Shown: one piece after another, positions 25,445 through 49,967 of the stretch
How the letters are laid out: every line of letters begins with the position of its first letter
How positions within the stretch are numbered: position 1 is the stretch's first letter
NCBI GenBank assembly: GCA_017414535.1
Contig: JAFQMA010000045.1
Location: 3,054-67,053, forward strand
Origin: Clostridia bacterium
GTDB taxonomy: Bacteria; Bacillota; Clostridia; Oscillospirales; SIG627
DNA: 64,000 bases
Direction of reading: 5' to 3'
Position numbers and translations under genes: made by a program
The notes under the pieces: generated by a model
Database searches by the model: none
What the model saw: the letters and a program-made list of their open reading frames with translations, nothing else
What the model was told of the DNA's origin: nothing

Positions 25445-26500
25445 TTAATAGACGGATTCCGGTGTGACCATGTCCCAATATTCGGAGTATTCTACCTTGA
25501 TATCCTTTCCCTTTTCCCGATACAGGCGGTAGAAAACGTCGTCGTAAGCACCGGAATGCCATTCGTTATAGGAATCGGTATAGCCGAACAGTGCCGTGTC
25601 GCGGTTCTCCAGCATCCTTACCTCCCGCATCTCCACGCGGCGGATCAGGTACAGTCCCGTCTCTCCCGCCGTGGGCTCGGACACCTCGCCGACCGCCAGT
25701 GCGCGGCTCGTCTCATACAGAACGTCCTCCGCCTGACCCTCGGTGATGTAATAACCGTCGGGATAATCGCCCATGCGCTCGTCCTTACCGTATTTCAGCA
25801 CCAGCTCCCAGAAATCCTCCCCTGCAGAGAGCTTATCCTGCACGGCCTTGATCTCTGCCATCGTCTTTTCGTGGGAGGTCCTGTTCTCGCCCTCGGCGTA
25901 GGGGATAAAGATCTGCTGCACCGCCAGATAGTGCTGACGGTAATATTCCAGGAATTCCTCGTCGGTAAAGGCGGCCGCGCCACCCTCGCCGAAGAGCGTG
26001 TTAAAGAGCTTTTTGTAAAGGGCGGCGTATTCCATCATGGAGCGATAAAGCCCCTCGGTCATGTAAGATTTTTCGAGCTCCGCCGCAACCGCCTCATCGC
26101 CGCCGCTCAGCTCTGCGATCTGGTCCAGCTGCTCCTGCACGGCCTTCCTTTCGTCCTCGCTCAGAGAGACCTTGTGCTCCGCGGCCAGCTGACGGACGGA
26201 ATACACGTCCAGCAGGACCTGCAGGATCTCCTGCTTTAAGGTCTCGTTTGCCCCGTCCTTCTTGAAGTGGTCGGGATCTTCCTTCAGATAAGAGTCGCGG
26301 TAATTCAGGTAATAATAGCGAAATTCCGTAAAGGATACGGTTTTTCCGTCAAAGCTGAGAAAATTCTCGGGGAACAGATCTCCCTCGCTTAAACGGAGCC
26401 CCCCCGCACGTCCGGGATCGATGCTTTCTTCCTTCGCTGAGCAGGCGCACAGGGAGAGAAGGGTAAGCAGAGCCAAAAGAAATGCAACGGTTCTTTTCAT
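25445..26500 (-). CDS. PrsA/SurA-like lipoprotein with a (degenerate) PpiC parvulin domain
   Basis: The lipobox is LSLCA-C (MKRTVAFLLALLTLLSLCAC). The C-terminal half (...DKLSAGEDFWELVLKYGKDE...GYYITEGQ...VGEVSEP..GETGLYLIRR) resembles a parvulin PPIase fold. Confidence 0.6.
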   Translation of the reverse strand: MKRTVAFLLALLTLLSLCACSAKEESIDPGRAGGLRLSEGDLFPENFLSFDGKTVSFTEFRYYYLNYRDSYLKEDPDHFKKDGANETLKQEILQVLLDVYSVRQLAAEHKVSLSEDERKAVQEQLDQIAELSGGDEAVAAELEKSYMTEGLYRSMMEYAALYKKLFNTLFGEGGAAAFTDEEFLEYYRQHYLAVQQIFIPYAEGENRTSHEKTMAEIKAVQDKLSAGEDFWELVLKYGKDERMGDYPDGYYITEGQAEDVLYETSRALAVGEVSEPTAGETGLYLIRRVEMREVRMLENRDTALFGYTDSYNEWHSGAYDDVFYRLYREKGKDIKVEYSEYWDMVTPESVY

Positions 26501-30000: not shown

Positions 30001-31521
30001 ATGAAATCCGTGCCGCGCTTTCCTTCTCTCTTTTTCCGTCAGTATCTCAATTGCCTTTCCGTTTCCTTCTTGGCGGCAGTGGTGTTGCTTCTCCTTTGCG
30101 AACAGGCTCCGCTTTCGGTGCTTGCGGCGGTCGTTGGCGCTCTTGCCCTGCTGCTGACAGCGGCTTTTCAAAAGCTGCGCTATCATCGTATCGCTTTACT
30201 TTTTGCTGCCTTCGGCATCGCTCTGGCTCTTCTTGCCGTAGGTTCCCGCTCCCTCAAAGCGGAGCTGGCCGTCAAGGCCTCTCAAGGAGAAGGGGAGTGC
30301 ACGGGGTACGTAACGCACGTGGATGAGGACGGCTTCGATCTGAAGACCACCTCTCTGCAGGGAAAGACGAAATTTGTCAAAATTCGGGTCTGTAGCGAGG
30401 AGAAGCCGCGCTTTGGCGACCGTGTTTGCCTGACTCTTTCCGAGGCCCGTGCGGCAGACGGCGCCGCGGCGAGCGAGGGCGTTGTGCTCCTTGCCGAGGG
30501 AGAGGACGTGGTGCGACTTTCCTCCTCCGTGCTCCTCTCCCTTGTGGGAGATCTTCGCACGTATCTGACGCAAGTCTTCGGGGAAGGGGAGACGGGCACC
30601 TTTTTGTCTGCCATCCTGCTGGGAGAGCGCTCGGGTCTTCCCGCCTCGCTTTCCGAGGCCTTCCGTCGCACGGCCTCCTCTCATCTCTTGGCCATATCGG
30701 GACTTCACGTGACCACCATCATGGGCTTTTTGTATTTTGCTGCCCGCGCATTCCGTATAGATCGGCGCGCCGTTAACGGGATCGCCGTCCCCACCGTGCT
30801 TTTGCTGATCCTGCTCACGGGTCTTTCCGTTTCCGTGATCCGCGCAGGCGTGATGATGCTCATGACCCTCCTTGCCTATTTTTCACGACGCAAGAGCGAT
30901 CCGACGACGGCACTTTTTCTGGCGGCCCTGCTGATCGTGCTTTGGGAGCCCCGTGCCGTCTTTTCCGCCTCATTTCTGCTTTCTTTCCTGTCCACTCTTT
31001 CCATCCTCACCGTCAGCGCACCGCTTTCCGCTTATCTTGAAAGCCTTTTGGGCGGGAAGAAGACAAAAGGGACTTGGGAGAGGCTTCTGATGCGGCTTTG
31101 TGCGTTGTTTCTCCTTCCCGTGCTCATGGCGGCGGCCTCGTTTCTTTTTACCCTTCCCGTGCAATTCTTGCTTTTCGAGGAGACCTGCCTCCTTGCGCCG
31201 ATCTACGCCGTCATTCTGATCCCGCTGTTTGCACCCTGTCTGGTGTTGGGACTTCTTTGGGCGGTCCTTTCCGCCGTGCCCGCCGTTTCCTTTGCTGTGG
31301 GCTTTGCCGCCCGCGGCTATTCCGCCTTTTTTCTCTTTTTGACCCGCTCCCTTTCTGCTGCTGCACCGGAGCCCGCCGCCGTGGGTGCGTGGGGTCTGCC
31401 TCTTGCACTGTTCTGCAGTGCCGCATTGCTCTTTTTTATGATCGTGCGCGCACCCTTGAGCCGCTTTTATTACGCTTATCCCGCGCTTTTTCTGATCTGT
31501 CTTGTCTGCGCTGCTTTTTGA
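30001..31521 (+). CDS. comEC: ComEC/Rec2-family membrane protein (competence domain only, no metallo-beta-lactamase domain)
   Basis: ...AFRRTASSHLLAISGLHVTTIMGFLYF... is the ComEC signature. The protein is polytopic. Confidence 0.8.
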   Translation: MKSVPRFPSLFFRQYLNCLSVSFLAAVVLLLLCEQAPLSVLAAVVGALALLLTAAFQKLRYHRIALLFAAFGIALALLAVGSRSLKAELAVKASQGEGECTGYVTHVDEDGFDLKTTSLQGKTKFVKIRVCSEEKPRFGDRVCLTLSEARAADGAAASEGVVLLAEGEDVVRLSSSVLLSLVGDLRTYLTQVFGEGETGTFLSAILLGERSGLPASLSEAFRRTASSHLLAISGLHVTTIMGFLYFAARAFRIDRRAVNGIAVPTVLLLILLTGLSVSVIRAGVMMLMTLLAYFSRRKSDPTTALFLAALLIVLWEPRAVFSASFLLSFLSTLSILTVSAPLSAYLESLLGGKKTKGTWERLLMRLCALFLLPVLMAAASFLFTLPVQFLLFEETCLLAPIYAVILIPLFAPCLVLGLLWAVLSAVPAVSFAVGFAARGYSAFFLFLTRSLSAAAPEPAAVGAWGLPLALFCSAALLFFMIVRAPLSRFYYAYPALFLICLVCAAF

Positions 31522-31648
31522 ATGAAAAAAACGAAAAAAAACATCAAAAAACGAGCGCATTGTGCACAATTTGTAAACGGCGATTTCAGTCAAAGTGCTG
31601 AAATGTATCAAAAAAAGGGAAAGAACTGCAAATCCGCGTTTTTTTCTC

Positions 31649-31677
31649 TTGCAAAACACACGGAAAAACTGTATAAT
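31649..31677 (+). promoter_or_regulatory. sigma-A promoter for paralog 1
   Basis: TTGCAA (31649-31654), a 17-nt spacer, then TATAAT (31672-31677). Confidence 0.5.
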
Positions 31678-31736
31678 GATGATAACTTAGTATGGGTAAA
31701 AGTATATCCATGCGAGCATTCATAGGAGGTTCTCCC

Positions 31737-34700
31737 ATGTTGAAAAACAAAAACTTACTGAAAGGTATCACCGCGCTCGTGGCATTCGTTTTGGTGCTGG
31801 GTGTCGGCGTGCTGCTCCATACCGTGGCAGCTTCCGACAACCTTATCCTTTACGTCTCCACCTACGGTGATAACACCAACGGAAAGGATGAGGCGACTGC
31901 CTTCAAAACGCTGAAGGATGCAACCATTGCTCTTCGCGATATGAAGCTTTCTCCCTCCACAAACGTAACCCTCATTGTTGTAGATAAGTGCTACACCACC
32001 GAGGGTAATACGGATGCAGGTCAGGAAATGGACGGAGTTCGCGTATACGACTCCGAGGGCAATAAAAAGCTCATCACCATTACCTCCCTCAATACGGATA
32101 ATGCGGCCAACCGTTCGGAGATCCATCTGAATTATAAGCCCGATCCTTATCACATCGATAATCAGAACGTGCGTGTGGTGAACGATCTGGTGTTCAAGGA
32201 TATCAACATCGTTTCCGAGGTTGCCTCCGTTCAGGTCAGCGACAGCTCCGGCGGCAACACGCAGTACTGGGCTCAGAAGCGTATGTTCCTGCAGAACTCC
32301 AACGTCACCTTCGACGGCGTGGATTTCACCTTCTCCGATACCGGAAAGTGCCAGAGCTTTGATTTTATTTACACGGATTTCTATCATCCCGTCACCACCG
32401 ATAAGAACAACAACGACGCAACCTACCAGGGCGATCTGGAAGTGACCTTTATCGATTGTAACCTGGGCAATGCTCTTGTTACCCGCTCCAAGCCCATCCC
32501 CGGTGCCAACCTGAAGTATAACTTCATCAACACCACCCTGGGCGAATTTCGCGGCACCATGGCCAACTGCGGCGGCATCGAGGTCTATGCCGAGGGCACT
32601 ACCTTTAATAGCTTTTTCGTTCTCACCGGTAACAACAAGGGCCGTGTGATCTCCGGCCCCGTTAAGGGCGTCCTGAAGAATTGCATCAACAAGACCAATG
32701 TCTTTGCTACTGCAGGCACCATGGAGAGTGACGTTACTCTGGAGTACATCGGCGGCGATTGCACCGGTAACTTCATGATCACCCGTTCCGGCTACGCTAC
32801 CAGCGTTGCAGGCAAGACCACCGTCAACGTGAAGGATTCTCTCCTCCGCGGCGTGTTCAGCGGTCCTCAGGGCACCTTTAACGGCGTTGATGTGCTCGTT
32901 CAGAATTCCACCGGTCAGCGCAGCTTTAGTGCATCCTACTTCAATTTGGATTCCGCCACCACCATCAACGGTGACTATAACATCGTTCTGGACGGTGCAC
33001 AGTATCCCGTTGTCGCAGGCGATAGCGGCTATTTCCACGGTATCAGCGGCGTGACCGTCACCGGTGACTACAACATCACCATCAAGGGAGACACCCTCAT
33101 CGACGACCGCTTCTTCGGTACGAAGAATACCGGTACCAGCACCTCTTACCTCCCCGTTCTGGTGGAAGGCAAGATGACCGTGACTATGCTTGACGGCCGA
33201 ATCGATAACTATTTCGGCTTTGGCGGCGGTATTACCCCCGCTACCATCAAGGGTGGCCTTTACAACTACTTCTACGGCGGTGACTTCTCCAAGGGCGTGG
33301 GCTGGGCCATCTCCGGCGGCTCCTACGGCACCAATAAGTACACGCCCATCATCAATGCCGATATTACCAACGTTCTCCAGAACGGTCCCGACGGCAAGGG
33401 TGAAGGTCCTCTCTTCGGTGGTACCTGTAACTCCGCAGCCCGCGGCGTATTTGCCGGCGGTTGCCAGTTTGATGCCAAGCACACCGGTAATATTACCAAC
33501 TATCTCTATGGCGGCAGATTTACCAATCCCGCAGGCGGTATCAATGCCGGCGGCCATAACCCCACCAACTACGGTGACGTCACCACCTATATCGGCAAGG
33601 GCTTCTCTTGTCCCAAGTGGTTCTACGGCGGTACCAACTGCGGTACCGTGCACGGCAACGTTTCCGTTATTGCCGAGGATTGCTCCTTTGACGGTATCTT
33701 TTACGTTGCTCAGGCCGGCGGTAACATCTACGGTGACGTTTCCTTTACCATGAACGAAGGAACCGTCCTGAAGACCGGTCTCTACGGCATGGGAGCCGGC
33801 TACGTAACCGGTAATTTCTCCAGTACCTTCAACGGCGGCGAGATTCAGGGCACCGCTTCCTCCAACACCTATGTTCTCGGTACCGGTAAGGGTGTGACCG
33901 GTAACGTATACAACACTTTCAACGGCGGCACCTTCAATACCAACATGAATCTGTCCCACTCCACCCCCGTCACGGGTAACGTGTACAATGAGTACAACGG
34001 TGGTACCTTTACCTACGGTGTATACAATGCATCCATTCAGCCCGCCGGTATCGTAAAGGGTAATATCTACAACACCGTAAATGGCGGCGACTTTAAGAAG
34101 TCCTTCCATGGCGGCGGCTACCGCGGTGCTGTCGAAGGCGACATCATCAATGTATTCAATAATACGACGATGGCTGTTACCGCAAACGGCGGTCATGGCT
34201 CTACCTCCTCTACCCACGTTGGTAATATTTACAATACGATCAATAACACGGTATTCAAGAGCCATTTTGTAGCAGGTCACGCCGCCCTGAACGCTTCTTA
34301 TACCTCTAAGGTAAACGCTGACACCAAGGTCTACGGCGCCTCCTTTGGTAATACCCTCCAGACCGGTACCGCAAAGACCTCCTACCTGCTCCTTTCTCCC
34401 ACGCTTGGTGACATTACCCTGCAGAAGGCAAACTGCGTATACAATTTTGCCACTGCAAACATTACCGTTACCGGTGGCGAGCACTTCCTGAAGATGAACA
34501 GCGACGGAAAACTCAATGCAGGCATCTTTGAGGGCACTGCACCTCTTAAGGTATCTCAGATGCAGTCTTGGACCAACGGACACGAATACGTGATCCTGCC
34601 CGCTACGGCTCCTGCAAACGCATTCATCGCCTTCGCTGATTCCGCCTCCGTTACCGGTACCGCAACTCAGGTCAACGGCGCTTCTGCCGTGAAGCTTGTA

Positions 34701-35573
34701 GGCGGACAGGGCAACAGCGCTGTTATTCCTACGCTGGATGGCTACAGAATTTCCGTTGACAAGGATCTTTCCGTGATCTTTGAGGTCGATAAGACCGAGC
34801 TTGAAAACTTCATTAACGCAGGTTACACCTGGTCCTGCACCGTGAAGATCAAGGATCAGCAGAAGACCCTCACCTTCGAGAAGGCTTCCGATCTGGATTC
34901 CTTCACAGGTGAAAACGTGGTACTTGCCCTGACCGGCATTCTGGCCAACGATTATGACGAGTATATCACCATTTCCATCCCCGGCAGAGCTGACGTAAGC
35001 ACGACTGTCTTCACTCTGCTTGGCAATGCCGTGAAGGCGTCTGCCTCAGATCCCGATCTGCAGTACTTCTTGAAGGCCCTCCACAATTACGGCATTCAGA
35101 CCGAAAGATACTTTGACGGTGTTAACTGGACCGGTGCCTACGCAGGCGATATTTCCTACAGCGGCTCCTACAATGATGTTCCCGTTCTGAATGAGACCGC
35201 AGGCTACAGCTTCTACGGCTCCAGCCTTGCTATGGATCAGAAGGTTGCCCTCAACCTCTACCTGAAGGCTCCCTCCGCAGAGGGTCTCACCGCGAAGGTA
35301 TTCATCGGCGGTACCGAATACGCCGCAGCTGAACTTGTTACCAAGTCCATCTCCGACAACGATGCCTTCAATTACGGTGTATCTCTGAGCGTGCCCTTCA
35401 CCGATATGGATGAGATCTTTACCATCCGTATCTACAACGGCACCACCGAGGTCGCTTCCTACACCGGCTCCATTGCCGCCGTATGTAACGCATACGTGGA
35501 AGCAGATGCCGACTGCAAGGCTCTTGCCGAGGCAATTCTTGCTCTGGTCGAAGCTGCAGGCGCTCACTTCTAA
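31737..35573 (+). CDS. Very large secreted or membrane-anchored GG(T)F-repeat protein, predicted parallel beta-helix-like (paralog 1)
   Basis: ATG 31737 follows AGGAGG. The N-terminal signal/anchor is MLKNKNLLKGITALVAFVLVLGVGVLLHTVAAS. The core has many ~20-25-aa units such as YNTFNGGTFNTNMN, YNEYNGGTFTYGVYN, YNTVNGGDFKKSFHGGGYRG and YNYFYGGDFSKG. I see no LPXTG, SLH or dockerin motif. Minus-strand ORF 31755-34583 is an antisense shadow. Confidence 0.85.
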   Translation: MLKNKNLLKGITALVAFVLVLGVGVLLHTVAASDNLILYVSTYGDNTNGKDEATAFKTLKDATIALRDMKLSPSTNVTLIVVDKCYTTEGNTDAGQEMDGVRVYDSEGNKKLITITSLNTDNAANRSEIHLNYKPDPYHIDNQNVRVVNDLVFKDINIVSEVASVQVSDSSGGNTQYWAQKRMFLQNSNVTFDGVDFTFSDTGKCQSFDFIYTDFYHPVTTDKNNNDATYQGDLEVTFIDCNLGNALVTRSKPIPGANLKYNFINTTLGEFRGTMANCGGIEVYAEGTTFNSFFVLTGNNKGRVISGPVKGVLKNCINKTNVFATAGTMESDVTLEYIGGDCTGNFMITRSGYATSVAGKTTVNVKDSLLRGVFSGPQGTFNGVDVLVQNSTGQRSFSASYFNLDSATTINGDYNIVLDGAQYPVVAGDSGYFHGISGVTVTGDYNITIKGDTLIDDRFFGTKNTGTSTSYLPVLVEGKMTVTMLDGRIDNYFGFGGGITPATIKGGLYNYFYGGDFSKGVGWAISGGSYGTNKYTPIINADITNVLQNGPDGKGEGPLFGGTCNSAARGVFAGGCQFDAKHTGNITNYLYGGRFTNPAGGINAGGHNPTNYGDVTTYIGKGFSCPKWFYGGTNCGTVHGNVSVIAEDCSFDGIFYVAQAGGNIYGDVSFTMNEGTVLKTGLYGMGAGYVTGNFSSTFNGGEIQGTASSNTYVLGTGKGVTGNVYNTFNGGTFNTNMNLSHSTPVTGNVYNEYNGGTFTYGVYNASIQPAGIVKGNIYNTVNGGDFKKSFHGGGYRGAVEGDIINVFNNTTMAVTANGGHGSTSSTHVGNIYNTINNTVFKSHFVAGHAALNASYTSKVNADTKVYGASFGNTLQTGTAKTSYLLLSPTLGDITLQKANCVYNFATANITVTGGEHFLKMNSDGKLNAGIFEGTAPLKVSQMQSWTNGHEYVILPATAPANAFIAFADSASVTGTATQVNGASAVKLVGGQGNSAVIPTLDGYRISVDKDLSVIFEVDKTELENFINAGYTWSCTVKIKDQQKTLTFEKASDLDSFTGENVVLALTGILANDYDEYITISIPGRADVSTTVFTLLGNAVKASASDPDLQYFLKALHNYGIQTERYFDGVNWTGAYAGDISYSGSYNDVPVLNETAGYSFYGSSLAMDQKVALNLYLKAPSAEGLTAKVFIGGTEYAAAELVTKSISDNDAFNYGVSLSVPFTDMDEIFTIRIYNGTTEVASYTGSIAAVCNAYVEADADCKALAEAILALVEAAGAHF

Positions 35574-35583
35574 AATTAACTGA

Positions 35584-35617
35584 AAAAAACGAGGATCTTC
35601 GGATCCTCGTTTTTTTA
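35584..35617 (+). terminator. Rho-independent terminator of paralog 1
   Basis: AAAAAAACGAGGATC-TTCG-GATCCTCGTTTTTTT. Confidence 0.8.
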
Positions 35618-35698
35618 TCATCTCAGAGGGGTTGGATACACTATTTCTCATATATTGGTTTTTTTGTATAAAAAAATGGATTATTCTATGATTTTCTA

Positions 35699-35727
35699 TT
35701 GAACTGGAATGATAATTTTGCTATAAT
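35699..35727 (+). promoter_or_regulatory. sigma-A promoter for paralog 2
   Basis: TTGAAC (35699-35704), a 17-nt spacer, then TGcTATAAT (35722-35727). Confidence 0.5.
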
Positions 35728-35778
35728 ATCTCAACATAGATTGGGGATTGTACCAACCGGGCATTTGGAGGAATATTC

Positions 35779-38700
35779 ATGCTGAAAAACAAGAATCTAT
35801 TGAAAGGGATCACCGCGCTCGTGGCATTCGTGCTGGTGCTTGGCGTTGGCGTACTGCTGCATTCCGTGGCCGCCTCTGACAACCTTATTCTTTACGTTTC
35901 CACTTATGGTGATAACTCAAACGGAAAGGACGAAGCAACGGCCTTTAAGACCTTGAAGGATGCTACCATTGCCCTTCGGGATATGAAGCTTTCTCCCTCC
36001 ACCGAGGTCACGATCATCGTCGTCGATAAGTGTTATACCAGAGACGGTGAAACGGATGCGGGTCAGGAGATGGACGGCGTTCGCGTGTTTGATTCCAAGG
36101 GCAATAAGAAGCTTATTACCGTTACCTCCCTTAATACGGATTCCAAGGAGAATTTCTCTGAGATCCATCTGAACTATCTGCCCGATCCCTATCATTACGA
36201 CAATCAGAATGTTCGCGTGGTGAACGATATCATCTTCAAGGATATTGATATCGTATCCGAGGTTGCCAACGTTCAGGTCAGTGACAGCAAGGGCGCCGAT
36301 ACTCAGTACTGGGCTCAGAAGCGCTTCTTCATGCAGAATGCCAAGGTTACCTTCGACAACGTTGACCTCACCTTCAGTGACACCAATAAGTGTCAGGATT
36401 TTGCGTGGATCTACACGGATTTTTATCACCCCGCTACCAAGGACAAAATGAACAACTCCGCCACCTACGACGGAGAGATCTCTCTTACCCTTATTGACTG
36501 CGATTTCGGCAATATCGCCGTAGCCGGTGCAGTCAAGTATGATATTCCCAATGCCAATTTAAAATACACCTTCATCAATTCCACCATCGGCACCTTCCAC
36601 GGTACCCGAAACGACTGTAATACCATTACCGTTGATGCCAAGGATTCCCATTTTTACAACGAGTTTAACATCTGCGGTGTCATGGATAAGACCGATCTCG
36701 GCCGTACTATCCATTCCGATGTTTACGGTATGATGGACGGATGCACCATGGACATGAACATCTTCCTCGTCGGTGCCAACATCGGCGGTAACGCCACTTT
36801 TGATTTTAACAATTCCAACGTTTCCGGCAACTTCATCGTTGCCCGTAATGGCTATAAGGCCAACGTTCAGGGGAACGTCACCGTTAATGTCGACTCCTCT
36901 TATTTTAAGGGCAATATCCGTGGTGTGCAGGGCACCTTCCACAAGGATGTTATCTATAACATCAAGGGCTCTACTCACGTGGACGGACGTTTCCAGGGTA
37001 CCTACGATAACGGCGAAGCCTCCCACATTTACGGAAAGCTCATCAACACCGTTTACAGCGGCCGAGTCGATAATTTCTTCGGCATGGGAGGCGGACCCAA
37101 TGACGTGCGCGTAGAGGGCGGTGTTTACAACTACTTCTACGGCGGGGATTTCTCCAATGGCGCTGCTATGGCGACCTCCGGCGGTGCGTACGGTACCAAT
37201 ACTTATGATTCCGCCGTTTACGCCGATATCACCAACGTGATCAAGAACGGCCCCGACGGCAACGGCCCCGCACCCATATTCGGTGACAAGACAGGCTCAC
37301 AGGCCCGCGGTGCTTTCGCTGGCGGTAACCAGTATCCCGGCACCCTTGAGGGCGATATTACCAACTACTTCTACGGCGGTGAGTATAGGTATTCCTCCTA
37401 TTCCTCCGGTCTTGTTTACGGCGGATGCTTCAACGCTACCCACACCGGTAACATTTATAACTACTGGGGTGAGAATTTTACCACCGATTATGGTGTCTTC
37501 GGAGGCACCTACGGTGGCGGAATTACCTACGGCGATATTCATAATACCTACGAGGGCGGTGTCTTCAAGGGAGGTGTTACCGGCGGTACCGGCAACGGTC
37601 ACCATTACGGCAGTATCTACAACACCGTCAATGCAGGCACCTTCGACAGCACCTTTAACGGCGGCCACCAGAACAACTATATGCTGGACGGCAGCGTGAC
37701 TACTGAGGTCAACGGCGGCACCTTCAACGATTTGTTCATGAACGGAACCCTCGGCGATTCCAAGAAACGCTACGGCGAGATCACCGGTGACCTGAATCTC
37801 ACTGTTAACGGCGGCACCTTTAATAAGGATTTCCGTTTGATCACCTCCGGTGGCACCTACGGCGGTGACGCCAACTTCACCATGACCGGCGGTACCATTG
37901 GCTACAATGAGGCAAACCTGTATCTTGTCGGTGATTCCGATAAGGTCAACCTCAAGGGCGATATCAACGTCCTCATCACCGGCGGTACCATCGACCGTGC
38001 CAGCTACGCTCTATATCCCGGCGGCCACAGCTGTCAGGTAGAAGGCAAGTCTACCGTGAGGATTACGGACGGCACCCTCAACTGTATGGTCTTCACCGCA
38101 CAGGTTAAGGCCCCCGGCGTCATTAAGGGCGGTGTCGAGCTGGATATTTCCGGCGGTACCTTTACCAAGGCTGTCAGTGGTGGTGGCTACCGCGGCGAGA
38201 TCCAAGGCAACACCGTAACCAAGATCAGTGGTGGTACCTTCAGCAACATTGTTTACGGTGGCTCCATGACTGAGCTTGTGGTCCACAACGGTAACCACAC
38301 CACCTCCATCAGCGGCGGCACCTTCAATAAGGCTGTTTTTCTCGGTCACGAGCAGCAGGACGCAAGCTATAACGGTACTCTGAATGCCTCCGTGACGGGC
38401 GGTACCTTCAAGGACGTTGTGAAGGGCGGTGGTGCTTACAGGTCCGCAGAGATCCTCTTTGCACCCAAGGATGGCAACATCACCTTTAACAATAGCAATC
38501 CCTTCAGCGCCAAGGTGGCGGCCGATACCCATGTTCTGGCAGGCGGCGAGCACTTCATTTGCCTGCGCAGCAATACGAAGCTTGCCTTCGACGATTTTGA
38601 AGGTAACGAGTCTGTGAAGTTTATGCAGCTTGTCAATTGGTCCGACGGCCATACCTACGTTACCGTAGCAAAGAACGCTCCTACCGATGCATTCGTGGCT

Positions 38701-39636
38701 CTCAACGATAAGGAGTCCGTTGTGGGCACTGCAACGCAGGTGGCGGACGGCGTCCGGATGAAGCTGGTAGGCGGCACGGGAAGCGGAGTTATCGTTCCCA
38801 CTCTTGAGTCCTATGCCCTGTCCGTTGACAATGACCTTTCCGCTCTCTTCTTTGTATCCAAGACCCGTCTTGAGGAATACGTCGGTGCCGGCAACAACTG
38901 GACCTGCACCGTGAAGAGCGGTGACAAGGTCAAGGCCGTGACCTTTGAAAGCGTTTCCGATCTTTCCTCCGTTGCGGATGAATACGTGGTCATTACCTTG
39001 ACCGATATTCTGGCCACCGATTACGACCGCGCCATCACCGTGACGATCTCCGGTAGAGAGCCTCTCGAATTTACGGTTTACGATCTGATCGAGGACGGCA
39101 TTGACAATGCCAACACTGCAGAGCTTGAGGACTTCCTGAAGGCCTTGCATAACTACGGTGTGGAATCTGAGAATTACTTCGTCAAGGGTAAGCTTTCCTT
39201 GAAGTATCCCGAGATCGCTTATACCGATTCCTACACGGCAACGCCTGTTCTGTCCGAGAGTACAGGCTATCGCTTCTACGGCTCCAGCTTGGCCATGGAT
39301 CAGAAGATCGCCCTCAACCTCTATCTGAAGACCCCCTTTGCCGAGGGACTGACCGCGAAGGTCTTCGTGGGCGGTACGGAATATACCGGTGCAAAGGTCA
39401 TCGCGAAGCCCCTTTCCGGCTACGATGCCTTTAACTACGGTGTATCTCTGAGCGTGCCCTTCACCGATATGGACGAGACCTTTACCGTTCGCATCTATGA
39501 GGGGGAGGCAGAGGTTGCTTCCTATACCGGCTCCGTTGCCAATGTCTGCGCCGCTTACGTGGATGCAAACGCTGACTGCAAGGATCTGGCAGAGGCTGTG
39601 CTGACGCTCTTTGAAACGGCAAAGGCCGCCTTTTAA
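35779..39636 (+). CDS. Very large GGTF-repeat beta-helix-like protein (paralog 2)
   Basis: GGAGG RBS. The first 100 aa differ from paralog 1 at only 7 positions (my count). The core repeats are VNGGTFNDLF, VNGGTFNKDF, MTGGTIGYNE, ITGGTIDRAS, ISGGTFTKAV, ISGGTFSNIV, ISGGTFNKAV and VTGGTFKDVV. The C-terminal ~330 aa are again clearly homologous to paralog 1. Confidence 0.85.
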   Translation: MLKNKNLLKGITALVAFVLVLGVGVLLHSVAASDNLILYVSTYGDNSNGKDEATAFKTLKDATIALRDMKLSPSTEVTIIVVDKCYTRDGETDAGQEMDGVRVFDSKGNKKLITVTSLNTDSKENFSEIHLNYLPDPYHYDNQNVRVVNDIIFKDIDIVSEVANVQVSDSKGADTQYWAQKRFFMQNAKVTFDNVDLTFSDTNKCQDFAWIYTDFYHPATKDKMNNSATYDGEISLTLIDCDFGNIAVAGAVKYDIPNANLKYTFINSTIGTFHGTRNDCNTITVDAKDSHFYNEFNICGVMDKTDLGRTIHSDVYGMMDGCTMDMNIFLVGANIGGNATFDFNNSNVSGNFIVARNGYKANVQGNVTVNVDSSYFKGNIRGVQGTFHKDVIYNIKGSTHVDGRFQGTYDNGEASHIYGKLINTVYSGRVDNFFGMGGGPNDVRVEGGVYNYFYGGDFSNGAAMATSGGAYGTNTYDSAVYADITNVIKNGPDGNGPAPIFGDKTGSQARGAFAGGNQYPGTLEGDITNYFYGGEYRYSSYSSGLVYGGCFNATHTGNIYNYWGENFTTDYGVFGGTYGGGITYGDIHNTYEGGVFKGGVTGGTGNGHHYGSIYNTVNAGTFDSTFNGGHQNNYMLDGSVTTEVNGGTFNDLFMNGTLGDSKKRYGEITGDLNLTVNGGTFNKDFRLITSGGTYGGDANFTMTGGTIGYNEANLYLVGDSDKVNLKGDINVLITGGTIDRASYALYPGGHSCQVEGKSTVRITDGTLNCMVFTAQVKAPGVIKGGVELDISGGTFTKAVSGGGYRGEIQGNTVTKISGGTFSNIVYGGSMTELVVHNGNHTTSISGGTFNKAVFLGHEQQDASYNGTLNASVTGGTFKDVVKGGGAYRSAEILFAPKDGNITFNNSNPFSAKVAADTHVLAGGEHFICLRSNTKLAFDDFEGNESVKFMQLVNWSDGHTYVTVAKNAPTDAFVALNDKESVVGTATQVADGVRMKLVGGTGSGVIVPTLESYALSVDNDLSALFFVSKTRLEEYVGAGNNWTCTVKSGDKVKAVTFESVSDLSSVADEYVVITLTDILATDYDRAITVTISGREPLEFTVYDLIEDGIDNANTAELEDFLKALHNYGVESENYFVKGKLSLKYPEIAYTDSYTATPVLSESTGYRFYGSSLAMDQKIALNLYLKTPFAEGLTAKVFVGGTEYTGAKVIAKPLSGYDAFNYGVSLSVPFTDMDETFTVRIYEGEAEVASYTGSVANVCAAYVDANADCKDLAEAVLTLFETAKAAF

Positions 39637-39643
39637 GTAAATA

Positions 39644-39675
39644 AAAACGAGGATCTTCAGATCCTCGTTTTTTTA
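39644..39675 (+). terminator. Rho-independent terminator of paralog 2 (near-identical to 35584-35617)
   Basis: AAAAACGAGGATC-TTCA-GATCCTCGTTTTTTT. Confidence 0.8.
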
Positions 39676-39728
39676 TCTTTTCTTTTTGCGCAATCTGTGC
39701 TACAATAGGGAAAATAGGAGGAAAAAGC

Positions 39729-39917
39729 ATGGTTTTTGAAGTGATTCGGGGCAAAACGCCTATGGGCGGAGATTATCGAGAGATCTATTATTTTACCCGC
39801 GACATGATTCCCACGGAAAAGGAACTTGCCACCCGTGCCATCGTGAGGGAATGTAAGGAGGACGGCACCCTCGTCGGGGAGTCTGTTCTCGTTCTGCAAA
39901 AGGGAGAGGAGAAGTGA
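39729..39917 (+). CDS. 62-aa protein of unknown function, translationally coupled to the CotH gene
   Basis: AGGAGG RBS 7 nt upstream. An extended -10 (TGcTACAAT) lies about 30 nt upstream. Its stop overlaps the GTG start of the next gene (GTGA). Confidence 0.5.
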   Translation: MVFEVIRGKTPMGGDYREIYYFTRDMIPTEKELATRAIVRECKEDGTLVGESVLVLQKGEEK

Positions 39918-42460
39918 AGCCCCTTTCCTCACGTCGTCTGCTGATCTCACTTTCTCTGCTTTTTGCCTTCTTCATTCTTGCCTTGAGCCTCTTTTTCTTC
40001 TTTTTGGGAAAGGGCGCCTACGGCGGCGTTTTTTCTCCCGATACCATAGATTTTTCCCTTTCTCTGAACGGACAGACCGTCCTTTCTCCCGAAAGCGGCG
40101 TCTTACTTCCCGCAGGGGATCATCGGCTGACCCTTACCGTAGAGGAGCCGTCCCCCCTTTTTGTCTACCTTCTGTGCGACGGCAAGCCCTTGTACGAGGG
40201 CGAGCTGTATGAAAAGGAGACCGTTCTTTCGGCTTCATTGGAGAAGGAAAGCCGTCTTTCCGTTCTCTTTATGAAGGAAGCCGAGGCCAAGGCCTATCTT
40301 TCTACCTCCTCGGATCTTGCCTTTTCTCTGAAAAAAATGCGGGTCGGCGGGGATCTTACTTTCCTTGAGGATCTAGGCTCCGCTCCTCTTTCTTTACAGG
40401 CGCCCTTCCGTCTGTTCGGCATCTATTCCTTCGAGGAAATCACCGTGGAAACGGCTCTGTCCGCTCCCATCGTCCTCTGTCCCTCTGTGCCCGCCTCAGG
40501 CGCTCTCTATGTGAATGCTCCTGCGGCAATGGTCTATTATCGCAATTTCACCCCTTCCTTTACGAAGACCACCCGCGATCTTTATTTAAAGGCAGCAGGC
40601 TGCAACGGCGATGCCTTGGATCCTCTCTACTATCCCGTATCAAGCCTTGCGGAGCTGGAACGCCTGGCCGATCCCGCAGCTCTGCCCCGTCTGCAGGAAA
40701 ATGGCTCCATTTGCTTTCTTGCCCCCGTTTCCTTGCAGAAAAGCCTTTCCTTCACTTGCCATGCAAATCTTTCCTTCTTGGCTCAGCCCTCCTTTGGGGC
40801 GCATGCCCTTATTTTTTCTACCCCAACGGAAGGGGAATTCAGCGTTACGGTAGACGGGGGGATCTCCGTGCCTCAATGCGCCCTACGCTTTGATGCTCCC
40901 CGTTCAGGCCTTACTTGGAGTGCTTCGGCACTTAGCGGTCTTTCTACCGCCCCTGTCGCCTTGACCGTGGAAAAATACAATAACCTTGCCTTTTATAACG
41001 GCTCGGAGCTGGCGTTGGGCGGTGAAGGCAAGGCCGTTCCCACTCTTGCCTTTTACAAGACCTATCATCCTTCCCTTGAGGAGGATATCGTCTTTACGGC
41101 AGAGGGCAATCTCCTCACCGCCGCATTGCCTTTTTCCATGACCTTGAAGGATCTGGAGGGGCTTTCTCATACTCTTGTTTCCGATGGGGGCACCTGCCAC
41201 TTGGTGGGAACGCTGTCCGACGGCTACGTGCTTACCGTGGATGAAAACGGTTTGGAACATCGATACGGCATTGCTGCTCGCCGCGAGGCTAAGGGCATTC
41301 CCGTGGTATATCTTGAAACGGAAAACGGCGCGGCGATCGATTCCAAATCTCAGTACGTTTCCGCCACTATCATGCTGGATAGCGTCGATCCCGCTCTTTC
41401 CTCCCTGCAGGAGACCCATATCCGCATTCGCGGCCGCGGTAATTCTACGTGGAAGTGGGATAAAAAGCCCTATAAGATCCATTTTGATGAACCGGTCGCT
41501 CTCTTCGGCCTGCCCGCAGGAGAGGAGTGGGCGTTGTTTGCCAATTTTGCAGACAAGACACTCATGCGCAACCGCCTGGCGCAGATCATGTCGGAGGAGC
41601 TTTCCTTCGCCTACACCCCATCCCACGTTTATGTGGACGTTTTCCTCAACGGAGAATACCTTGGCATCTACGGACTCGGTGAGCATCTGGAGGAGGGGGA
41701 GGGCAGGGTAGAGGTGCCCCACGATCCCTCAGCGCTGGATTGCGGCTTCTTTATGGAGGCGGGCGGTGTCGTGGCAGGGGTTGACGTAAAAGGAATGAAT
41801 TATTTTCATACCGATCTTTTGAAATTCGTCCTTATCAAGGGCCCTGAATTCAATGCCCTGACCTCCGAGCAATTTTCCTATATCCGCGATTACGTACAAA
41901 AGGCCTGTGATGCCGTAGTGGCGGGGGATGGCTACGAGGAGTATATCGATATGGAGTCCTTCATTGATTGGCTCATTATGATCGAGCTTTCCAACAACGT
42001 GGACTGCGCCTATCGTCGCAGCACCTATATCACCAAGGCACCGGGCGGAAAGCTGGTTTTCGGTCCCATGTGGGATTTTGACCTTGCTTTCGGTAATTTT
42101 TCCAAGGATGAGCAGGCCTACAACGTGTGGGTCTCTACCTCGGAGGACGACTACGTAGGCACTACCTGGTCCACCTATCTTCTGGAGGATCCCGAATTCC
42201 GTGCCATGTTCAAACGGCGCTGGCTGGAGGTTCGGGACAGCCTTTTGGAGGCCGCCTTTGCCGAGATCGAAACGGGCTACGAAAAGCTTGCTCCCTCCGC
42301 CGAGGAGAACTTTATCCGCTGGGATATCTTGGGCAAAAAAGTCGCCTTCGAGCCCTTTTCCACCAAGTATTATCCTACCTTTGAATCCAACATCGAATAT
42401 CTGACCGAGTTTTTGGAGGATCGAGCCGCGTGGATCAGCGCTCAGGTCAAGGATTGGTAA
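39914..42460 (+). CDS. Membrane-anchored CotH (atypical kinase-fold) domain protein with a ~450-aa uncharacterised N-terminal region
   Basis: The GTG start follows GGAGAGGAG. There is an N-terminal transmembrane helix (LLISLSLLFAFFILALSLFFFFLG). The C-terminal half (IRIRGRGNSTWKWDKKPYKIHFD...GEEWALFANFADKTLMRNRLA...VDVFLNGEYLGIYGLGEH...FGPMWDFDLAFGN) is typical CotH. Confidence 0.85.
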   Translation: MKPLSSRRLLISLSLLFAFFILALSLFFFFLGKGAYGGVFSPDTIDFSLSLNGQTVLSPESGVLLPAGDHRLTLTVEEPSPLFVYLLCDGKPLYEGELYEKETVLSASLEKESRLSVLFMKEAEAKAYLSTSSDLAFSLKKMRVGGDLTFLEDLGSAPLSLQAPFRLFGIYSFEEITVETALSAPIVLCPSVPASGALYVNAPAAMVYYRNFTPSFTKTTRDLYLKAAGCNGDALDPLYYPVSSLAELERLADPAALPRLQENGSICFLAPVSLQKSLSFTCHANLSFLAQPSFGAHALIFSTPTEGEFSVTVDGGISVPQCALRFDAPRSGLTWSASALSGLSTAPVALTVEKYNNLAFYNGSELALGGEGKAVPTLAFYKTYHPSLEEDIVFTAEGNLLTAALPFSMTLKDLEGLSHTLVSDGGTCHLVGTLSDGYVLTVDENGLEHRYGIAARREAKGIPVVYLETENGAAIDSKSQYVSATIMLDSVDPALSSLQETHIRIRGRGNSTWKWDKKPYKIHFDEPVALFGLPAGEEWALFANFADKTLMRNRLAQIMSEELSFAYTPSHVYVDVFLNGEYLGIYGLGEHLEEGEGRVEVPHDPSALDCGFFMEAGGVVAGVDVKGMNYFHTDLLKFVLIKGPEFNALTSEQFSYIRDYVQKACDAVVAGDGYEEYIDMESFIDWLIMIELSNNVDCAYRRSTYITKAPGGKLVFGPMWDFDLAFGNFSKDEQAYNVWVSTSEDDYVGTTWSTYLLEDPEFRAMFKRRWLEVRDSLLEAAFAEIETGYEKLAPSAEENFIRWDILGKKVAFEPFSTKYYPTFESNIEYLTEFLEDRAAWISAQVKDW

Positions 42461-42499
42461 AAAAGAAATTCCCGCCTTTTCGACGGGAATTTCTTTTTT
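42461..42499. terminator. Bidirectional terminator (CotH gene / nth)
   Basis: AGAAATTCCCG-(9-nt loop)-CGGGAATTTCT flanked by A- and T-runs. Confidence 0.75.
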
Positions 42500-43157
42500 A
42501 TTCCGCTATATTCTTCATGGGACAGTTTTCACAACTCGGATTTTGCGCGCGGCAGTATTCTCTTCCCAAAAGGATGATGCGATGGCAGAAATCGCTTTGC
42601 TCCTTTTTGGGAATAATCTTCTCTAAGGCTCGCGTGACCTTGGAAGGGTCTGTTTCTCTTGTAAGACCCAGCCTTCCCGCCAAGCGGATACAGTGGGTAT
42701 CTGCCACGATGTGGGGGTCTCCGAATACGTCACCCAACATAAGATTGGCGATCTTTTCGCCCACACCCGGCAGAGAAAGGAGAGTTTCCTTGTCTTGCGG
42801 CACCTCTCCTCCAAAGTGCTCCGTCAAGATCCTTGCCGTATCTCGGATGCTCTTGGCTTTCGTGCGGTAAAGACCGCAGGGACGTACTGCCTCTTCCAGC
42901 TCCTCGAGACGGCTGCTTGCAAAGGCTTCTACGTCGGGATATTTCTCAAACAAAGGACGGCTCACTTCGTTGACCCGTTTGTCCGTACACTGAGCGGAAA
43001 GCCTTGCCATGACTAAAAGTCGCCAGGGATCGCCTCCGAATTCCAGAGCACACTGCGCCTCGGGATAAAGATCCTTCAGCTTTGCGTGGATCTTATCGGC
43101 ACGTTTTTTCTTGCTTTTTTCCCCCATGAAGGGAGAAGGACAGCGTAGCTTTTTCAT
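42498..43157 (-). CDS. nth: Endonuclease III (HhH-GPD base-excision glycosylase)
   Basis: ATG 43157 follows AAAGGAG. LPGVGEKIANLMLGD is the HhH motif, followed by VADTHCIRL. The C-terminal Cys cluster CRAQNPSCENC has only 3 of the usual 4 Cys. Confidence 0.85.
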   Translation of the reverse strand: MKKLRCPSPFMGEKSKKKRADKIHAKLKDLYPEAQCALEFGGDPWRLLVMARLSAQCTDKRVNEVSRPLFEKYPDVEAFASSRLEELEEAVRPCGLYRTKAKSIRDTARILTEHFGGEVPQDKETLLSLPGVGEKIANLMLGDVFGDPHIVADTHCIRLAGRLGLTRETDPSKVTRALEKIIPKKEQSDFCHRIILLGREYCRAQNPSCENCPMKNIAE

Positions 43158-46652: not shown

Positions 46653-47507
46653 TTAAATGGTGCCCTCCACTGTCAGGGTGGCGGTGCCGGGATCGGTGAT
46701 CCAGGTGCCGTTTTCGGGTGACTGATAGAAGGTGGCGGCAGGTACGGTGATCACTCCGGGCACGGTGCTGAACCGGCCACTTGTCTGATCGTAGGTGTAG
46801 CCCGTGCCGATGGCTAAGGGCGTGCCGTTCAGAGTGACGGTCAGATCGGTGAGAATGGGATCGAACAGATCGGATACGCTGACGTTATCCGCAGCAACAG
46901 CTTCTGTGTTGCCGCTGTTCTGGATCACGAAGGTGTAGGTCACACGGCTTCCCTCGGTTACCACTCGCGGGGTAATGGCCTTGGTAATGGTAAGGCTTGC
47001 CCCCGCCTGGGGGGTCACCGTCTCGGTGGCTGTTGCTACGGTGGTAAGCGTGCCTGCGGTAACGGTGGCTGTGTTGGTCACGCTTGCGCCTGCGCCGAGT
47101 GGAGCCAGATTGTTGGCCACCGCCTCATAAAGCAGGATCGCATTGCCTCCTGCGGGAATGGTAATGCCGGAGAAGGTCACGCCCATTCCCTGAGTCACGG
47201 CGGGAGGGGTTTGCAGGACGCCGTTTACGAACAAACGGATGGAGCCCTCCTTATAATCCAAAGGCACCAGAGTTGAGCTTCCGAAGGGATATGCGCCCAG
47301 ATCGTCGGTGACGGTAATGCCGCCGATGGGGGATGTGCCGGAGTTGAGAATACTGATAACGTACGTTACGTCAGAGCCCGTGGTATAGGTCTCCGTCACG
47401 GCCGTTTTCGTTGCGCTTAATACCTCCAGCAGCTCACCGGTGGCGATGTTGGAGCTTGTAGTGGTATTTTGATAAGTCAGCGTTGCCTGATTTGTAAAAA
47501 TAGCCAT
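46653..47507 (-). CDS. DUF11 (conserved repeat domain) protein with two repeats and no signal peptide
   Basis: The two DUF11-type units are ...KTAVTETYTTGSDVTYVISILNSGTSPIGGITVTDDL... and ...ITKAITPRVVTEGSRVTYTFVIQNSGNTEAVAADNVSVSDLF... The N-terminus MAIFTNQATLTYQN is hydrophilic. Confidence 0.8.
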   Translation of the reverse strand: MAIFTNQATLTYQNTTTSSNIATGELLEVLSATKTAVTETYTTGSDVTYVISILNSGTSPIGGITVTDDLGAYPFGSSTLVPLDYKEGSIRLFVNGVLQTPPAVTQGMGVTFSGITIPAGGNAILLYEAVANNLAPLGAGASVTNTATVTAGTLTTVATATETVTPQAGASLTITKAITPRVVTEGSRVTYTFVIQNSGNTEAVAADNVSVSDLFDPILTDLTVTLNGTPLAIGTGYTYDQTSGRFSTVPGVITVPAATFYQSPENGTWITDPGTATLTVEGTI

Positions 47508-49958: not shown

Positions 49959-49967
49959 AAATACTCC

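What the first reader, a model, noticed from the sequence alone, without database searches (positions are those of the whole stretch)
31649..42499. Two tandem ~1,290-aa GGTF-repeat paralogs, a coupled micro-ORF and a membrane-anchored CotH-domain protein: candidate undescribed surface or spore-surface module
About 11 kb (a sixth of the window) is taken by three transcription units on one strand. The first two are monocistronic giant genes (31737-35573 and 35779-39636), each with its own sigma-A-like promoter and strong terminator. The third is a bicistron: a 62-aa ORF (39729-39917) whose stop overlaps (GTGA) the start of an 848-aa protein (39914-42460). That 848-aa protein has an N-terminal transmembrane helix, ~450 aa with no motif I recognise, and a C-terminal CotH domain. 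The giant proteins have an N-terminal signal/anchor but no LPXTG, SLH, choline-binding or dockerin module. Their cores are built from dozens of ~20-25-residue units centred on GG(T)F/N, which is what a right-handed parallel beta-helix looks like in sequence. CotH is an atypical protein kinase that phosphorylates spore-coat proteins in Bacillus. Here it appears to face outward and sits next to two S/T/Y/N/G-rich giant proteins in a genome that also carries cotJABC. I know of no described system pairing CotH with this protein family.
Basis: partly seen in the sequence, partly recalled or inferred. Interest (0 to 1): 0.7.

Follow-up and report, generated by a model that had tools for sequence, protein, structure and literature searches.

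The report
Two beta-helix surface genes beside micro-ORF/CotH operon
The four genes are real, but they form two independent units in uncultured gut Clostridia: a duplicated, fast-evolving secreted beta-helix surface protein, and a small conserved protein translationally coupled to a membrane-anchored CotH-type kinase; neither unit needs the other as a neighbour.

Summary
The sequence-level observations hold. There are two paralogous giants of ~1,280 aa, each with a sigma-A-like promoter and its own terminator. A 62-aa ORF overlaps (GTGA) the start of an 848-aa protein that has one N-terminal transmembrane helix and a full-length CotH domain with both catalytic aspartates. The AlphaFold2 model of giant 2 (pLDDT 83.6) has the short, regularly spaced strands of a long beta-helix followed by beta-sandwich domains. 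It has no Pfam match and no significant structural match.

The proposed giant+micro+CotH module is not a conserved unit. Across about 25 related loci the giant always follows a ComEC-like gene (15/15). The micro-ORF sits directly upstream of CotH in 19 of 23 loci. Giant and CotH are adjacent in only 11 loci. Four giants have no CotH directly downstream, and 10-12 CotH genes have no giant upstream. In one genome both genes exist but lie in unrelated contexts. Every breakpoint falls at the terminator between the giant and the micro-ORF.

The micro-CotH operon carries a conserved extended -10 (TGTGnTAnAAT) promoter. That points to vegetative expression rather than spore-specific expression.

The most interesting piece is the micro-protein. 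It is under strong purifying selection (pN 0.13, pS 0.72), is confined to this clade, and is always coupled to CotH. Overall interest is modest.

The parts
31649..31677 (+). sigma-A-like promoter of giant 1 (TTGCAA-17-TATAAT)
   Evidence: 10/12 match; sequence
31737..35573 (+). giant 1, 1278 aa: signal peptide or anchor (aa 5-34, VAA|S site), beta-helix with 6-9 GGxF units, C-terminal beta-sandwich/helical region
   Evidence: family membership
35583..35616 (+). intrinsic terminator of giant 1 (15-bp stem, T-run); near-identical copy of the terminator after giant 2
   Evidence: sequence
35699..35727 (+). sigma-A-like promoter of giant 2 (TTGAAC-17-TATAAT with TG extension)
35779..39636 (+). giant 2, 1285 aa: same architecture, 13 GGxF units. 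AF2 model of aa 34-1233 has pLDDT 83.6 and pTM 0.70, with short, regularly spaced beta strands to about aa 890, then beta-sandwich and helical elements
39643..39672 (+). intrinsic terminator of giant 2 (bidirectional hairpin)
   Evidence: sequence
39696..39706 (+). extended -10 promoter element TGTGcTACAAT of the micro-CotH operon, conserved as TGTGnTAnAAT in at least 11 of 17 orthologous loci
39729..39917 (+). micro-ORF, 62 aa, with no signal peptide and an AGGAGG ribosome-binding site at 39716-39721. It is a conserved 58-aa family: 65-81% identity across species, pN 0.127 and pS 0.724
39914..42460 (+). membrane-anchored CotH-family protein, 848 aa, with a GTG start overlapping the micro-ORF stop
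39932..40006 (+). transmembrane helix (aa 7-31) after a K/R-rich N-terminus, giving an N-in, C-out signal anchor
   Evidence: (helix 7-31)
40019..41425 (+). extracytoplasmic region of about 470 aa with no recognisable domain; 31-38% identity among orthologs
41426..42436 (+). CotH domain (aa 505-841), about 67% identical among orthologs. D721 and D723 are invariant and D697 is at least 90% conserved

Best explanation
The region holds two independent genetic units. In this lineage they happen to lie side by side within a conserved chromosomal neighbourhood: cotJ - Zip - HU - PrsA - M23/G5 peptidase - PGA_cap - ComEC | giant(s) | micro-CotH | EndoIII - AAA - acyl-AMP ligase - SpoU.

Unit 1 is a clade-restricted, fast-evolving family of Sec-exported proteins. 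Each has a long right-handed beta-helix built partly from ~26-aa GGxF rungs, followed by C-terminal beta-sandwich domains. Here the gene is tandemly duplicated together with its terminator. Each copy is transcribed alone from a vegetative-type promoter. I infer that they are cell-surface fibrils or adhesins. Their conserved ends would handle export and attachment, and their variable middles would set binding or antigenic specificity.

Unit 2 is a two-gene operon with its own extended -10 promoter. A 58-62-aa cytoplasmic protein is translationally coupled to a type-II membrane protein. That membrane protein's extracytoplasmic part ends in a catalytically intact CotH (Fam20C-like) kinase domain. 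I infer that CotH phosphorylates an extracytoplasmic target. I also infer that the micro-protein acts on the cytoplasmic side, for example in assembly, insertion or control of CotH. Its substrate is unknown.

Shown: gene structures, conservation, synteny statistics, domain identity, residue conservation, and a strand-only model consistent with a beta-helix. Inferred: surface location, adhesin role, kinase activity, and the role of the micro-protein.
For: Independence of the two units:
- The giant follows ComEC in 15 of 15 loci.
- Micro-CotH follows the giant in 11 loci. It is replaced by SpoVT, PBP5 or a GH29-like gene in 4.
- CotH lacks an upstream giant in 10-12 loci.
- Genome JAZODR has both genes in separate contexts (L066; L012).
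- A terminator plus promoter lies between the units, both in the window and in orthologs.

Giants:
- Only 53 relatives at E<=1e-3 among 1.84 billion representative proteins, with no Pfam domain in the family.
- AF2 pLDDT 83.6, with short, regularly spaced strands through the first ~860 residues of the model.
- The best Foldseek alignments of 800-1000 columns are all beta-helix adhesin passengers: EspC, Ag43, SepA, pertactin, Hbp, Fap2 and EtpA. The C-terminus gives FN3-like hits.
- A distant repeat-sharing relative carries 3 SLH domains.
- The ends are conserved and the middle is variable. Third-codon identity is 0.5-0.7, so the duplication is old.

Micro-CotH:
- The micro-ORF is directly upstream of CotH in 19 of 23 full-length orthologs with upstream sequence.
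- pN 0.127 against pS 0.724.
- The CotH HMM match is full length, E 1.6e-54.
- D697 and D721 align with the QNFDG and WDYD motifs of B. cereus CotH 5JD9. The spacing matches the inactivating D228Q and D251A mutants (PMC7821199).
Against: Adjacency in 11 species is more than nothing. It could reflect an ancestral functional link that was later relaxed.

In L064 and L065 the gene after the giant sits next to recombinases or a contig end. A mobile insertion, rather than true separation, therefore cannot be excluded for those two loci.

Foldseek E-values for the giant are all above 1e-3, so the beta-helix assignment rests on the model's strand pattern and on the kind of top hits.

No cell-wall anchoring module was found in the giants.

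An extracytoplasmic kinase needs extracellular ATP, which is unproven here.

The alignment of the catalytic loop to 5JD9 is a weak HMMER domain (score -1.8), and the AF2 model of CotH failed.

Promoter assignments come from consensus matching only.
Confidence: 0.6

Rival explanations
1. One reading: a kinase-substrate surface module. The outward-facing CotH would phosphorylate the S/T/Y-rich giants encoded next to it, by analogy with the B. subtilis cotB-cotH-cotG cluster.
For: There is a precedent for CotH substrates being encoded beside cotH (PMC7821199). The giant-micro-CotH order is kept in 11 species-level loci whose CotH is only about 50% identical. Both products are predicted to be extracytoplasmic. 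Further GGxF-repeat proteins lie 3-9 kb downstream of CotH in L006, L009 and L019.
Against: The adjacency is broken in at least 14 loci, with both genes persisting. The units are separated by a terminator and a promoter. The giants are folded beta-helices, not disordered Ser/Lys/Arg repeats like CotB and CotG. The adjacency sits inside a larger conserved syntenic block, so it carries little independent weight. No domain is shared between the CotH N-region and the giants.
Confidence: 0.12
2. A spore-associated module. The giants and CotH would be made during sporulation and would build or modify a spore surface layer or appendage.
For: cotJABC lies about 10 kb upstream in the same syntenic block. 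SpoVT-like genes follow the giant in L064 and L065. The only characterised bacterial CotH is a spore-coat kinase (PMC7821199).
Against: The promoters are sigma-A type, including a conserved TGTGnTAnAAT extended -10 and no sigma-E or sigma-K-like motifs. Bacillus CotH is a soluble mother-cell protein, whereas this one has an N-in, C-out membrane anchor. The giants carry Sec signals, which is unusual for coat proteins.
Confidence: 0.1
3. The giants are secreted enzymes, such as polysaccharide lyases or hydrolases of the pectate-lyase fold, rather than adhesins.
For: The N-terminal YVSxxGDNxxGxDEATAFxT motif resembles the cap of pectin-lyase-fold enzymes (my own knowledge). Pectate and pectin lyase entries appear among weak viral fold hits. 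Polysaccharide biosynthesis genes flank the region.
Against: There is no hit to any glycoside hydrolase, lyase or Beta_helix Pfam model at E<=1. The top PDB fold hits are adhesin or protease passengers, not lyases. A variable middle with conserved ends is more typical of binding proteins.
Confidence: 0.13
4. The micro-ORF is only a translational leader (uORF) that controls CotH expression; its peptide has no function of its own.
For: Its stop overlaps the CotH start, or lies within about 30 nt of it, in orthologs. It is missing in 4 CotH orthologs.
Against: The amino-acid sequence is more conserved (65-81%) than that of CotH itself (about 50%). 28 of 58 positions are invariant, and pN/pS is about 0.18.
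Confidence: 0.05

Closest known systems
Bacillus CotH spore-coat Ser/Thr kinase (PF08757; B. cereus structure 5JD9/5JDA)
   Same: The window protein matches the Pfam CotH model over its full length. A profile hit to 5JD9 has E 1.4e-5, and the aspartates corresponding to D228 and D251 are conserved.
   Different: The window protein is 848 aa, against about 360 aa for the Bacillus enzyme. It has an N-terminal membrane anchor and an unknown extracytoplasmic region of about 470 aa. It has a coupled 58-62-aa upstream gene and a sigma-A-type promoter. It has no CotB/CotG-like neighbours. It is too divergent for a single-sequence phmmer search to find 5JD9.
cotB-cotH-cotG kinase/substrate gene cluster of B. 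subtilis
   Same: A CotH gene lies next to genes for large, S/T-rich structural proteins.
   Different: The adjacency is not conserved here. The neighbours are folded beta-helices rather than disordered SKR repeats, and they are separate transcription units.
Beta-helix surface adhesins and autotransporter passengers (Ag43, pertactin, Hap, EtpA, Fap2)
   Same: Both have a long strand-only rod with regularly spaced short strands. These proteins are the best Foldseek alignments, spanning 800-1000 columns.
   Different: No hit is statistically significant (E>=0.018, TM<=0.23). The organism is Gram-positive, so there is no beta-barrel translocator or two-partner secretion (TPS) domain. The GGxF rung motif is distinct, and the C-terminal beta-sandwich/helical region is family-specific.
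CotH accessory genes of Gram-positive pel loci (CotH + polyphosphate polymerase + DUF4956 + DUF4832; PMC7112168)
   Same: Both involve a non-spore-coat CotH homolog near cell-surface polymer genes.
   Different: None of the partner genes (polyphosphate polymerase, DUF4956, DUF4832, pelDEADAFG) is present around this CotH.

Membership tests
CotH kinase family (PF08757) | Full-length match to the family HMM above the gathering score | tested here: met
   186 bits against a cutoff of 23.8, HMM positions 1-322 of 322, aa 505-841
CotH kinase family (PF08757) | Catalytic and metal-binding aspartates equivalent to B. subtilis D228 and D251 | tested here: met
   D697 (NNVDC) aligns to QNFDG and D721 (WDFD) aligns to WDYD of 5JD9, with matching 23-24-residue spacing. 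D721 and D723 are invariant and D697 is at least 90% conserved in 40 sequences. The mutants are described in PMC7821199. The alignment of this segment is weak.
CotH kinase family (PF08757) | Protein kinase activity | not testable with these tools
   Needs a biochemical assay
Spore-coat CotH (Bacillus type) | Soluble mother-cell protein expressed from a sporulation promoter and deposited in the coat | tested here: not met
   It has an N-terminal TM anchor and a conserved sigma-A-type extended -10. Expression itself was not measured.
cotB-cotH-cotG type kinase-substrate cluster | Conserved adjacency of CotH and its putative substrate genes across species | tested here: not met
   Adjacent in 11 loci and separated in at least 14. 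Genome JAZODR has both genes apart.
cotB-cotH-cotG type kinase-substrate cluster | Substrates with disordered Ser/Lys/Arg-rich repeats | tested here: not met
   The giants have 1.6-2.1% Arg and model as an ordered beta structure with pLDDT 83.6
Right-handed parallel beta-helix surface proteins | Strand-only solenoid fold with periodic rungs | tested here: inconclusive
   The AF2 DSSP pattern shows short, regularly spaced strands over about 860 residues. The top Foldseek hits are all beta-helix passengers, but with E>=0.018. Model coordinates could not be inspected.
Pectate-lyase/Beta_helix Pfam clan enzymes | Match to a lyase, hydrolase or Beta_helix HMM | tested here: not met
   No Pfam or NCBIfam hit at E<=1 for either giant, and none in 26 family members
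Gram-positive wall-anchored proteins (LPXTG / SLH / choline-binding / dockerin) | Recognised anchoring module | tested here: not met
   No C-terminal LPXTG and no anchoring domain by Pfam. Only a distant repeat-sharing relative, P0027, has SLH.
pel-associated CotH accessory cluster | Neighbouring polyphosphate polymerase, DUF4956, DUF4832 and pel genes | tested here: not met
   The neighbours are ComEC, the giants, EndoIII, AAA_18 and an AMP-binding gene. The cluster is defined in PMC7112168.

The most novel reading that the evidence does not exclude
The conserved 58-62-aa cytoplasmic protein and the membrane-anchored, outward-facing CotH kinase form an undescribed two-part ecto-kinase system in gut Clostridia. 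The micro-protein would be an obligate partner, such as an insertion or activation factor or a transmembrane signal relay. The adjacent hypervariable beta-helix surface proteins would be among its physiological substrates, which would make this the first bacterial example of regulated extracellular phosphorylation of surface fibrils outside the spore coat.
Probability: 0.1. Interest if true: 0.75.

Novelty: new variant of a known kind. Interest (0 to 1): 0.33.

Why it matters
CotH-family kinases are widespread outside spore formers, and many are predicted to be secreted. Apart from Bacillus coat assembly and the Mucorales invasins, almost nothing is known about what they do. This clade offers a clean, compact case: a membrane-anchored CotH with intact catalytic residues and a tightly coupled small partner protein that is more conserved than CotH itself. 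That pairing is a concrete handle for experiments on extracytoplasmic phosphorylation in gut Firmicutes.

The giants add one more undescribed family of Gram-positive beta-helix surface proteins with no known anchoring module. That is of ordinary interest.

The practical lesson is that adjacency inside a conserved syntenic block should not be read as a functional module.

Tried and rejected
- A single-sequence phmmer search and a 3-sequence profile of CotH against the PDB found nothing. Only the 40-sequence profile reached 5JD9.
- The AF2 model of the CotH protein with 4 sequences failed (pLDDT 39.8), so it was not fold-searched.
- The third homologous-protein search, using the giant family profile, returned only very long repeat proteins and not the true family.
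- Foldseek of the giant model against PDB and BFVD gave no hit at E<=1e-3.
- hhalign of the CotH N-region and of the micro-protein against the giant N, middle and C parts found no shared domain.
- The micro-protein profile against PDB and Pfam gave only sub-threshold matches: the RpoZ segment at E 0.7-1.5, and TnsA_N at 0.047 in a single member. I treated these as chance.
- Rfam found no riboswitch or known RNA in 31300-42700. The one sub-threshold sRNA hit sits over the terminator.
- The Nguyen et al. 2016 CotH paper is not in the library, so residue numbering was taken from PMC7821199.
- I considered recent gene conversion between the paralog 5' ends and rejected it. Synonymous third-position identity there is only 0.60-0.68.
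Full report
**1. What is in the sequence**

The four ORFs exist as described.
- Giant 1 runs 31737-35573 (1278 aa). The open frame begins at 31692, but a GGAGG ribosome-binding site 8 nt before the ATG at 31737, and identity with the paralog's start, favour 31737.
- Giant 2 runs 35779-39636 (1285 aa).
- The micro-ORF runs 39729-39917 (62 aa). It is preceded by AGGAGG.
- An 848-aa ORF runs 39914-42460. Its GTG start overlaps the micro-ORF's TGA stop.

Consensus scans place TTGCAA-17-TATAAT at 31649 and TTGAAC-17-(TG)TATAAT at 35699. Long hairpin+T-run terminators lie at 35583-35616 and 39643-39672. The two terminators are almost identical, so the tandem duplication included the terminator.

Pfam finds only CotH (PF08757), at aa 505-841 of the last protein. 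The match covers the full HMM, with E 1.6e-54. Neither giant nor the micro-ORF matches any Pfam or NCBIfam model.

Hydropathy shows one N-terminal hydrophobic segment in each giant and in CotH, and none in the micro-protein. There is no C-terminal LPXTG.

The database identifies the source as an uncultured Clostridia MAG.

**2. The giants**

The paralogs are 52% identical over aligned positions.
- The first 200 aa are 78-93% identical and the last 130 aa about 65-70%.
- The middle is only about 30% identical and carries large indels.
- Third-codon identity among identical residues is only 0.5-0.7, so the duplication is old and the ends are held by purifying selection.

A profile built on the GGxF motif finds 13 units of about 26 aa in giant 2 and 6-9 in giant 1.

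An exhaustive HMMER search of 1.84 billion representative proteins found only 53 relatives at E<=1e-3 and 15 at E<=1e-30. None of the 26 family members I scanned has a Pfam domain, apart from one distant repeat-sharing protein, P0027, which carries Flg_new and three SLH domains.

AlphaFold2 on aa 34-1233, using a 25-sequence alignment, gave pLDDT 83.6 and pTM 0.70. The model is a continuous run of short, regularly spaced strands to about residue 860, followed by beta-sandwich and helical elements.

Foldseek found nothing significant in PDB or BFVD. The longest top alignments are uniformly right-handed beta-helix passengers and adhesins: EspC, Ag43, SepA, EspP, pertactin, Hbp, Fap2, EtpA and Hap. 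The C-terminal part gives FN3 or cytokine-receptor-like hits.

The family itself is undescribed.

**3. The CotH protein and the micro-ORF**

The protein has K/R residues before a 25-residue helix (aa 7-31), which implies an N-in, C-out signal anchor.

Among about 20 full-length orthologs (46-53% identity) found in species-representative genomes, conservation varies by region:

| Region | Identity among orthologs |
|---|---|
| CotH domain | ~67% |
| Preceding ~470 aa | 31-38% |
| Micro-protein | 65-81% |

In a 40-sequence alignment, D721 and D723 (WDFD) are invariant and D697 is at least 90% conserved.

A profile of that alignment reaches B. cereus CotH 5JD9 at E 1.4e-5. It aligns NNVDC with QNFDG and WDFD with WDYD. 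The 23-24-residue spacing matches the inactivating D228Q and D251A mutations of B. subtilis CotH (PMC7821199). This part of the alignment is weak. My AF2 model of the protein failed (pLDDT 39.8), so the assignment is moderately secure and not proven.

The micro-ORF is a real gene.
- A 58-aa homolog lies immediately upstream of CotH in 19 of 23 full-length ortholog loci with upstream sequence.
- 28 of 58 positions are invariant.
- pN is 0.127 against pS 0.724.
- It has no signal peptide and no match in Pfam or PDB beyond chance-level hits.
- A scan of JGI metagenomes found only one further copy, again directly upstream of CotH.

**4. Is it one module?**

Mapping the window's genes onto related loci shows a conserved neighbourhood: PrsA - M23/G5 peptidase - PGA_cap - ComEC - [giant] - micro - CotH - EndoIII(-) - AAA_18 - AMP-binding - SpoU. 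Related loci additionally carry cotJ - Zip - HU upstream of PrsA, as does the window.

| Observation | Count | Loci |
|---|---|---|
| Giant directly downstream of a ComEC-like gene | 15 of 15 | all loci with a giant |
| Giant followed by (micro-)CotH | 11 species-level loci | window, L001/L004, L005, L006, L007, L013, L021, L062, L063, L069, L070 |
| Giant followed by another gene | 4 | L064 and L065 (SpoVT), L066 (PBP5), L068 (GH29-like) |
| ComEC directly followed by micro-CotH, no giant | 1 | L009 |
| EF-G - Rpe - micro - CotH, no giant within the available upstream sequence (1.4 to 10 kb) | 9 | L003, L008, L011, L012, L014, L015, L017, L028, L067 |

- Genome JAZODR carries both genes in unrelated places (L066 and L012).
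- The breakpoints always fall between the giant's terminator and the micro-ORF's promoter.
- Caveat: in L064 and L065 the sequence after the giant contains recombinases or ends the contig. An inserted mobile element cannot be excluded for those two loci.

**5. Regulation**

In at least 11 of 17 orthologous loci the gene upstream of the micro-ORF ends in a terminator hairpin. That hairpin is followed by TGTGnTAnAAT about 20 nt before the ribosome-binding site (window coordinates 39696-39706). This is the extended -10 (TRTG) form of Firmicute sigma-A promoters (my own knowledge).

Together with the sigma-A-like giant promoters, this argues for vegetative expression. It gives no support to a spore-specific role, even though cotJCBA lies at about 21.0-21.9 kb.

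No riboswitch or known RNA family lies in the region.

**6. Interpretation**

The best-supported reading is two independent units.

- **Unit 1.** A duplicated, rapidly diverging, Sec-exported beta-helix protein, most likely a surface fibril or adhesin. Its conserved ends would serve export and attachment. Its variable shaft would determine specificity.
- **Unit 2.** A bicistronic operon encoding a small cytoplasmic protein and a membrane-anchored, outward-facing CotH kinase with intact catalytic residues.

The kinase-substrate idea has a precedent in the B. subtilis cotB-cotH-cotG cluster (PMC7821199). Several observations count against it here:
- the two units are separable;
- they are transcribed independently;
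- the giants are ordered rather than disordered SKR-type substrates;
- there is no shared domain between the giants and the CotH N-region.

I give it about 0.12. The known association of CotH with pel loci (PMC7112168) does not apply, because none of the partner genes is present.

**7. Novelty and score**

No paper in the searchable library describes a micro-ORF/CotH pair or this giant family. Both belong to known kinds: CotH-family kinases and beta-helix surface proteins.

The new feature worth following is the tightly conserved small partner of a membrane-anchored CotH. The 'module' as proposed is an effect of synteny.

Interest is 0.33. The most novel reading not excluded is an ecto-kinase system with an obligate micro-protein partner acting on the neighbouring surface fibrils. 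I give it a probability of about 0.1.

Noticed in passing
window 21021-21911 (-): cotJC, cotJB and cotJA homologs (76%, 60% and 34% identity to the relatives' genes), followed by Zip (22189-22926, -), HU (23177-23443, +) and PrsA (25448-26500, -). The order is the same as in related MAGs.
   Followed up: partly
window 23531-25408 (+): A Polysacc_synt_2 (CapD/PglF-like) dehydratase gene sits between HU and PrsA. In relatives L064-L066 those two genes are adjacent, so this looks like a lineage-specific insertion.
   Followed up: no
window 35583-35616 and 39643-39672: The terminators after the two giants are nearly identical (AAAAACGAGGATCTTC[G/A]GATCCTCGTTTTTTT), although the 3' coding ends are only about 70% identical at the nucleotide level.
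   Followed up: partly
window 39729-39917, aa 24-54: The micro-protein profile gives a sub-threshold match (E 0.7-1.5) to the conserved C-terminal motif of RNA polymerase omega: [29 protein letters not shown] against DEMxPCEKEKATRAIVRECKEGGALINEEIL. This is probably chance, but it was the only recurring hit.
   Followed up: partly
L006 15624-22523 (-), L019 5891-11434 (-), L009 21013-22164 (-): Further very large GGxF-repeat proteins (up to 2299 aa) lie 3-9 kb downstream of CotH on the opposite strand in some relatives. Other relatives lack them.
   Followed up: partly
L064 12375-17796: In one relative the giant is followed by a SpoVT/MazE-like gene and three large serine recombinases. This may be a mobile element inserted where micro-CotH sits in other genomes.
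   Followed up: no
window 48855-58769: A surface-polysaccharide gene cluster (UDP-galactopyranose mutase, GT2, two Bac_transf priming transferases, epimerase, ATP-grasp, GT1) lies 6 kb downstream of CotH.
   Followed up: no
window 46653-47507 (-): A DUF11/CARDB-like surface protein is conserved at the same position in relatives (L010, L070).
   Followed up: no
L012, L013, L018, L022: Four full-length or near full-length CotH orthologs lack the micro-ORF. In L013 the giant is followed directly by CotH with a gap of about 130 nt.
   Followed up: partly
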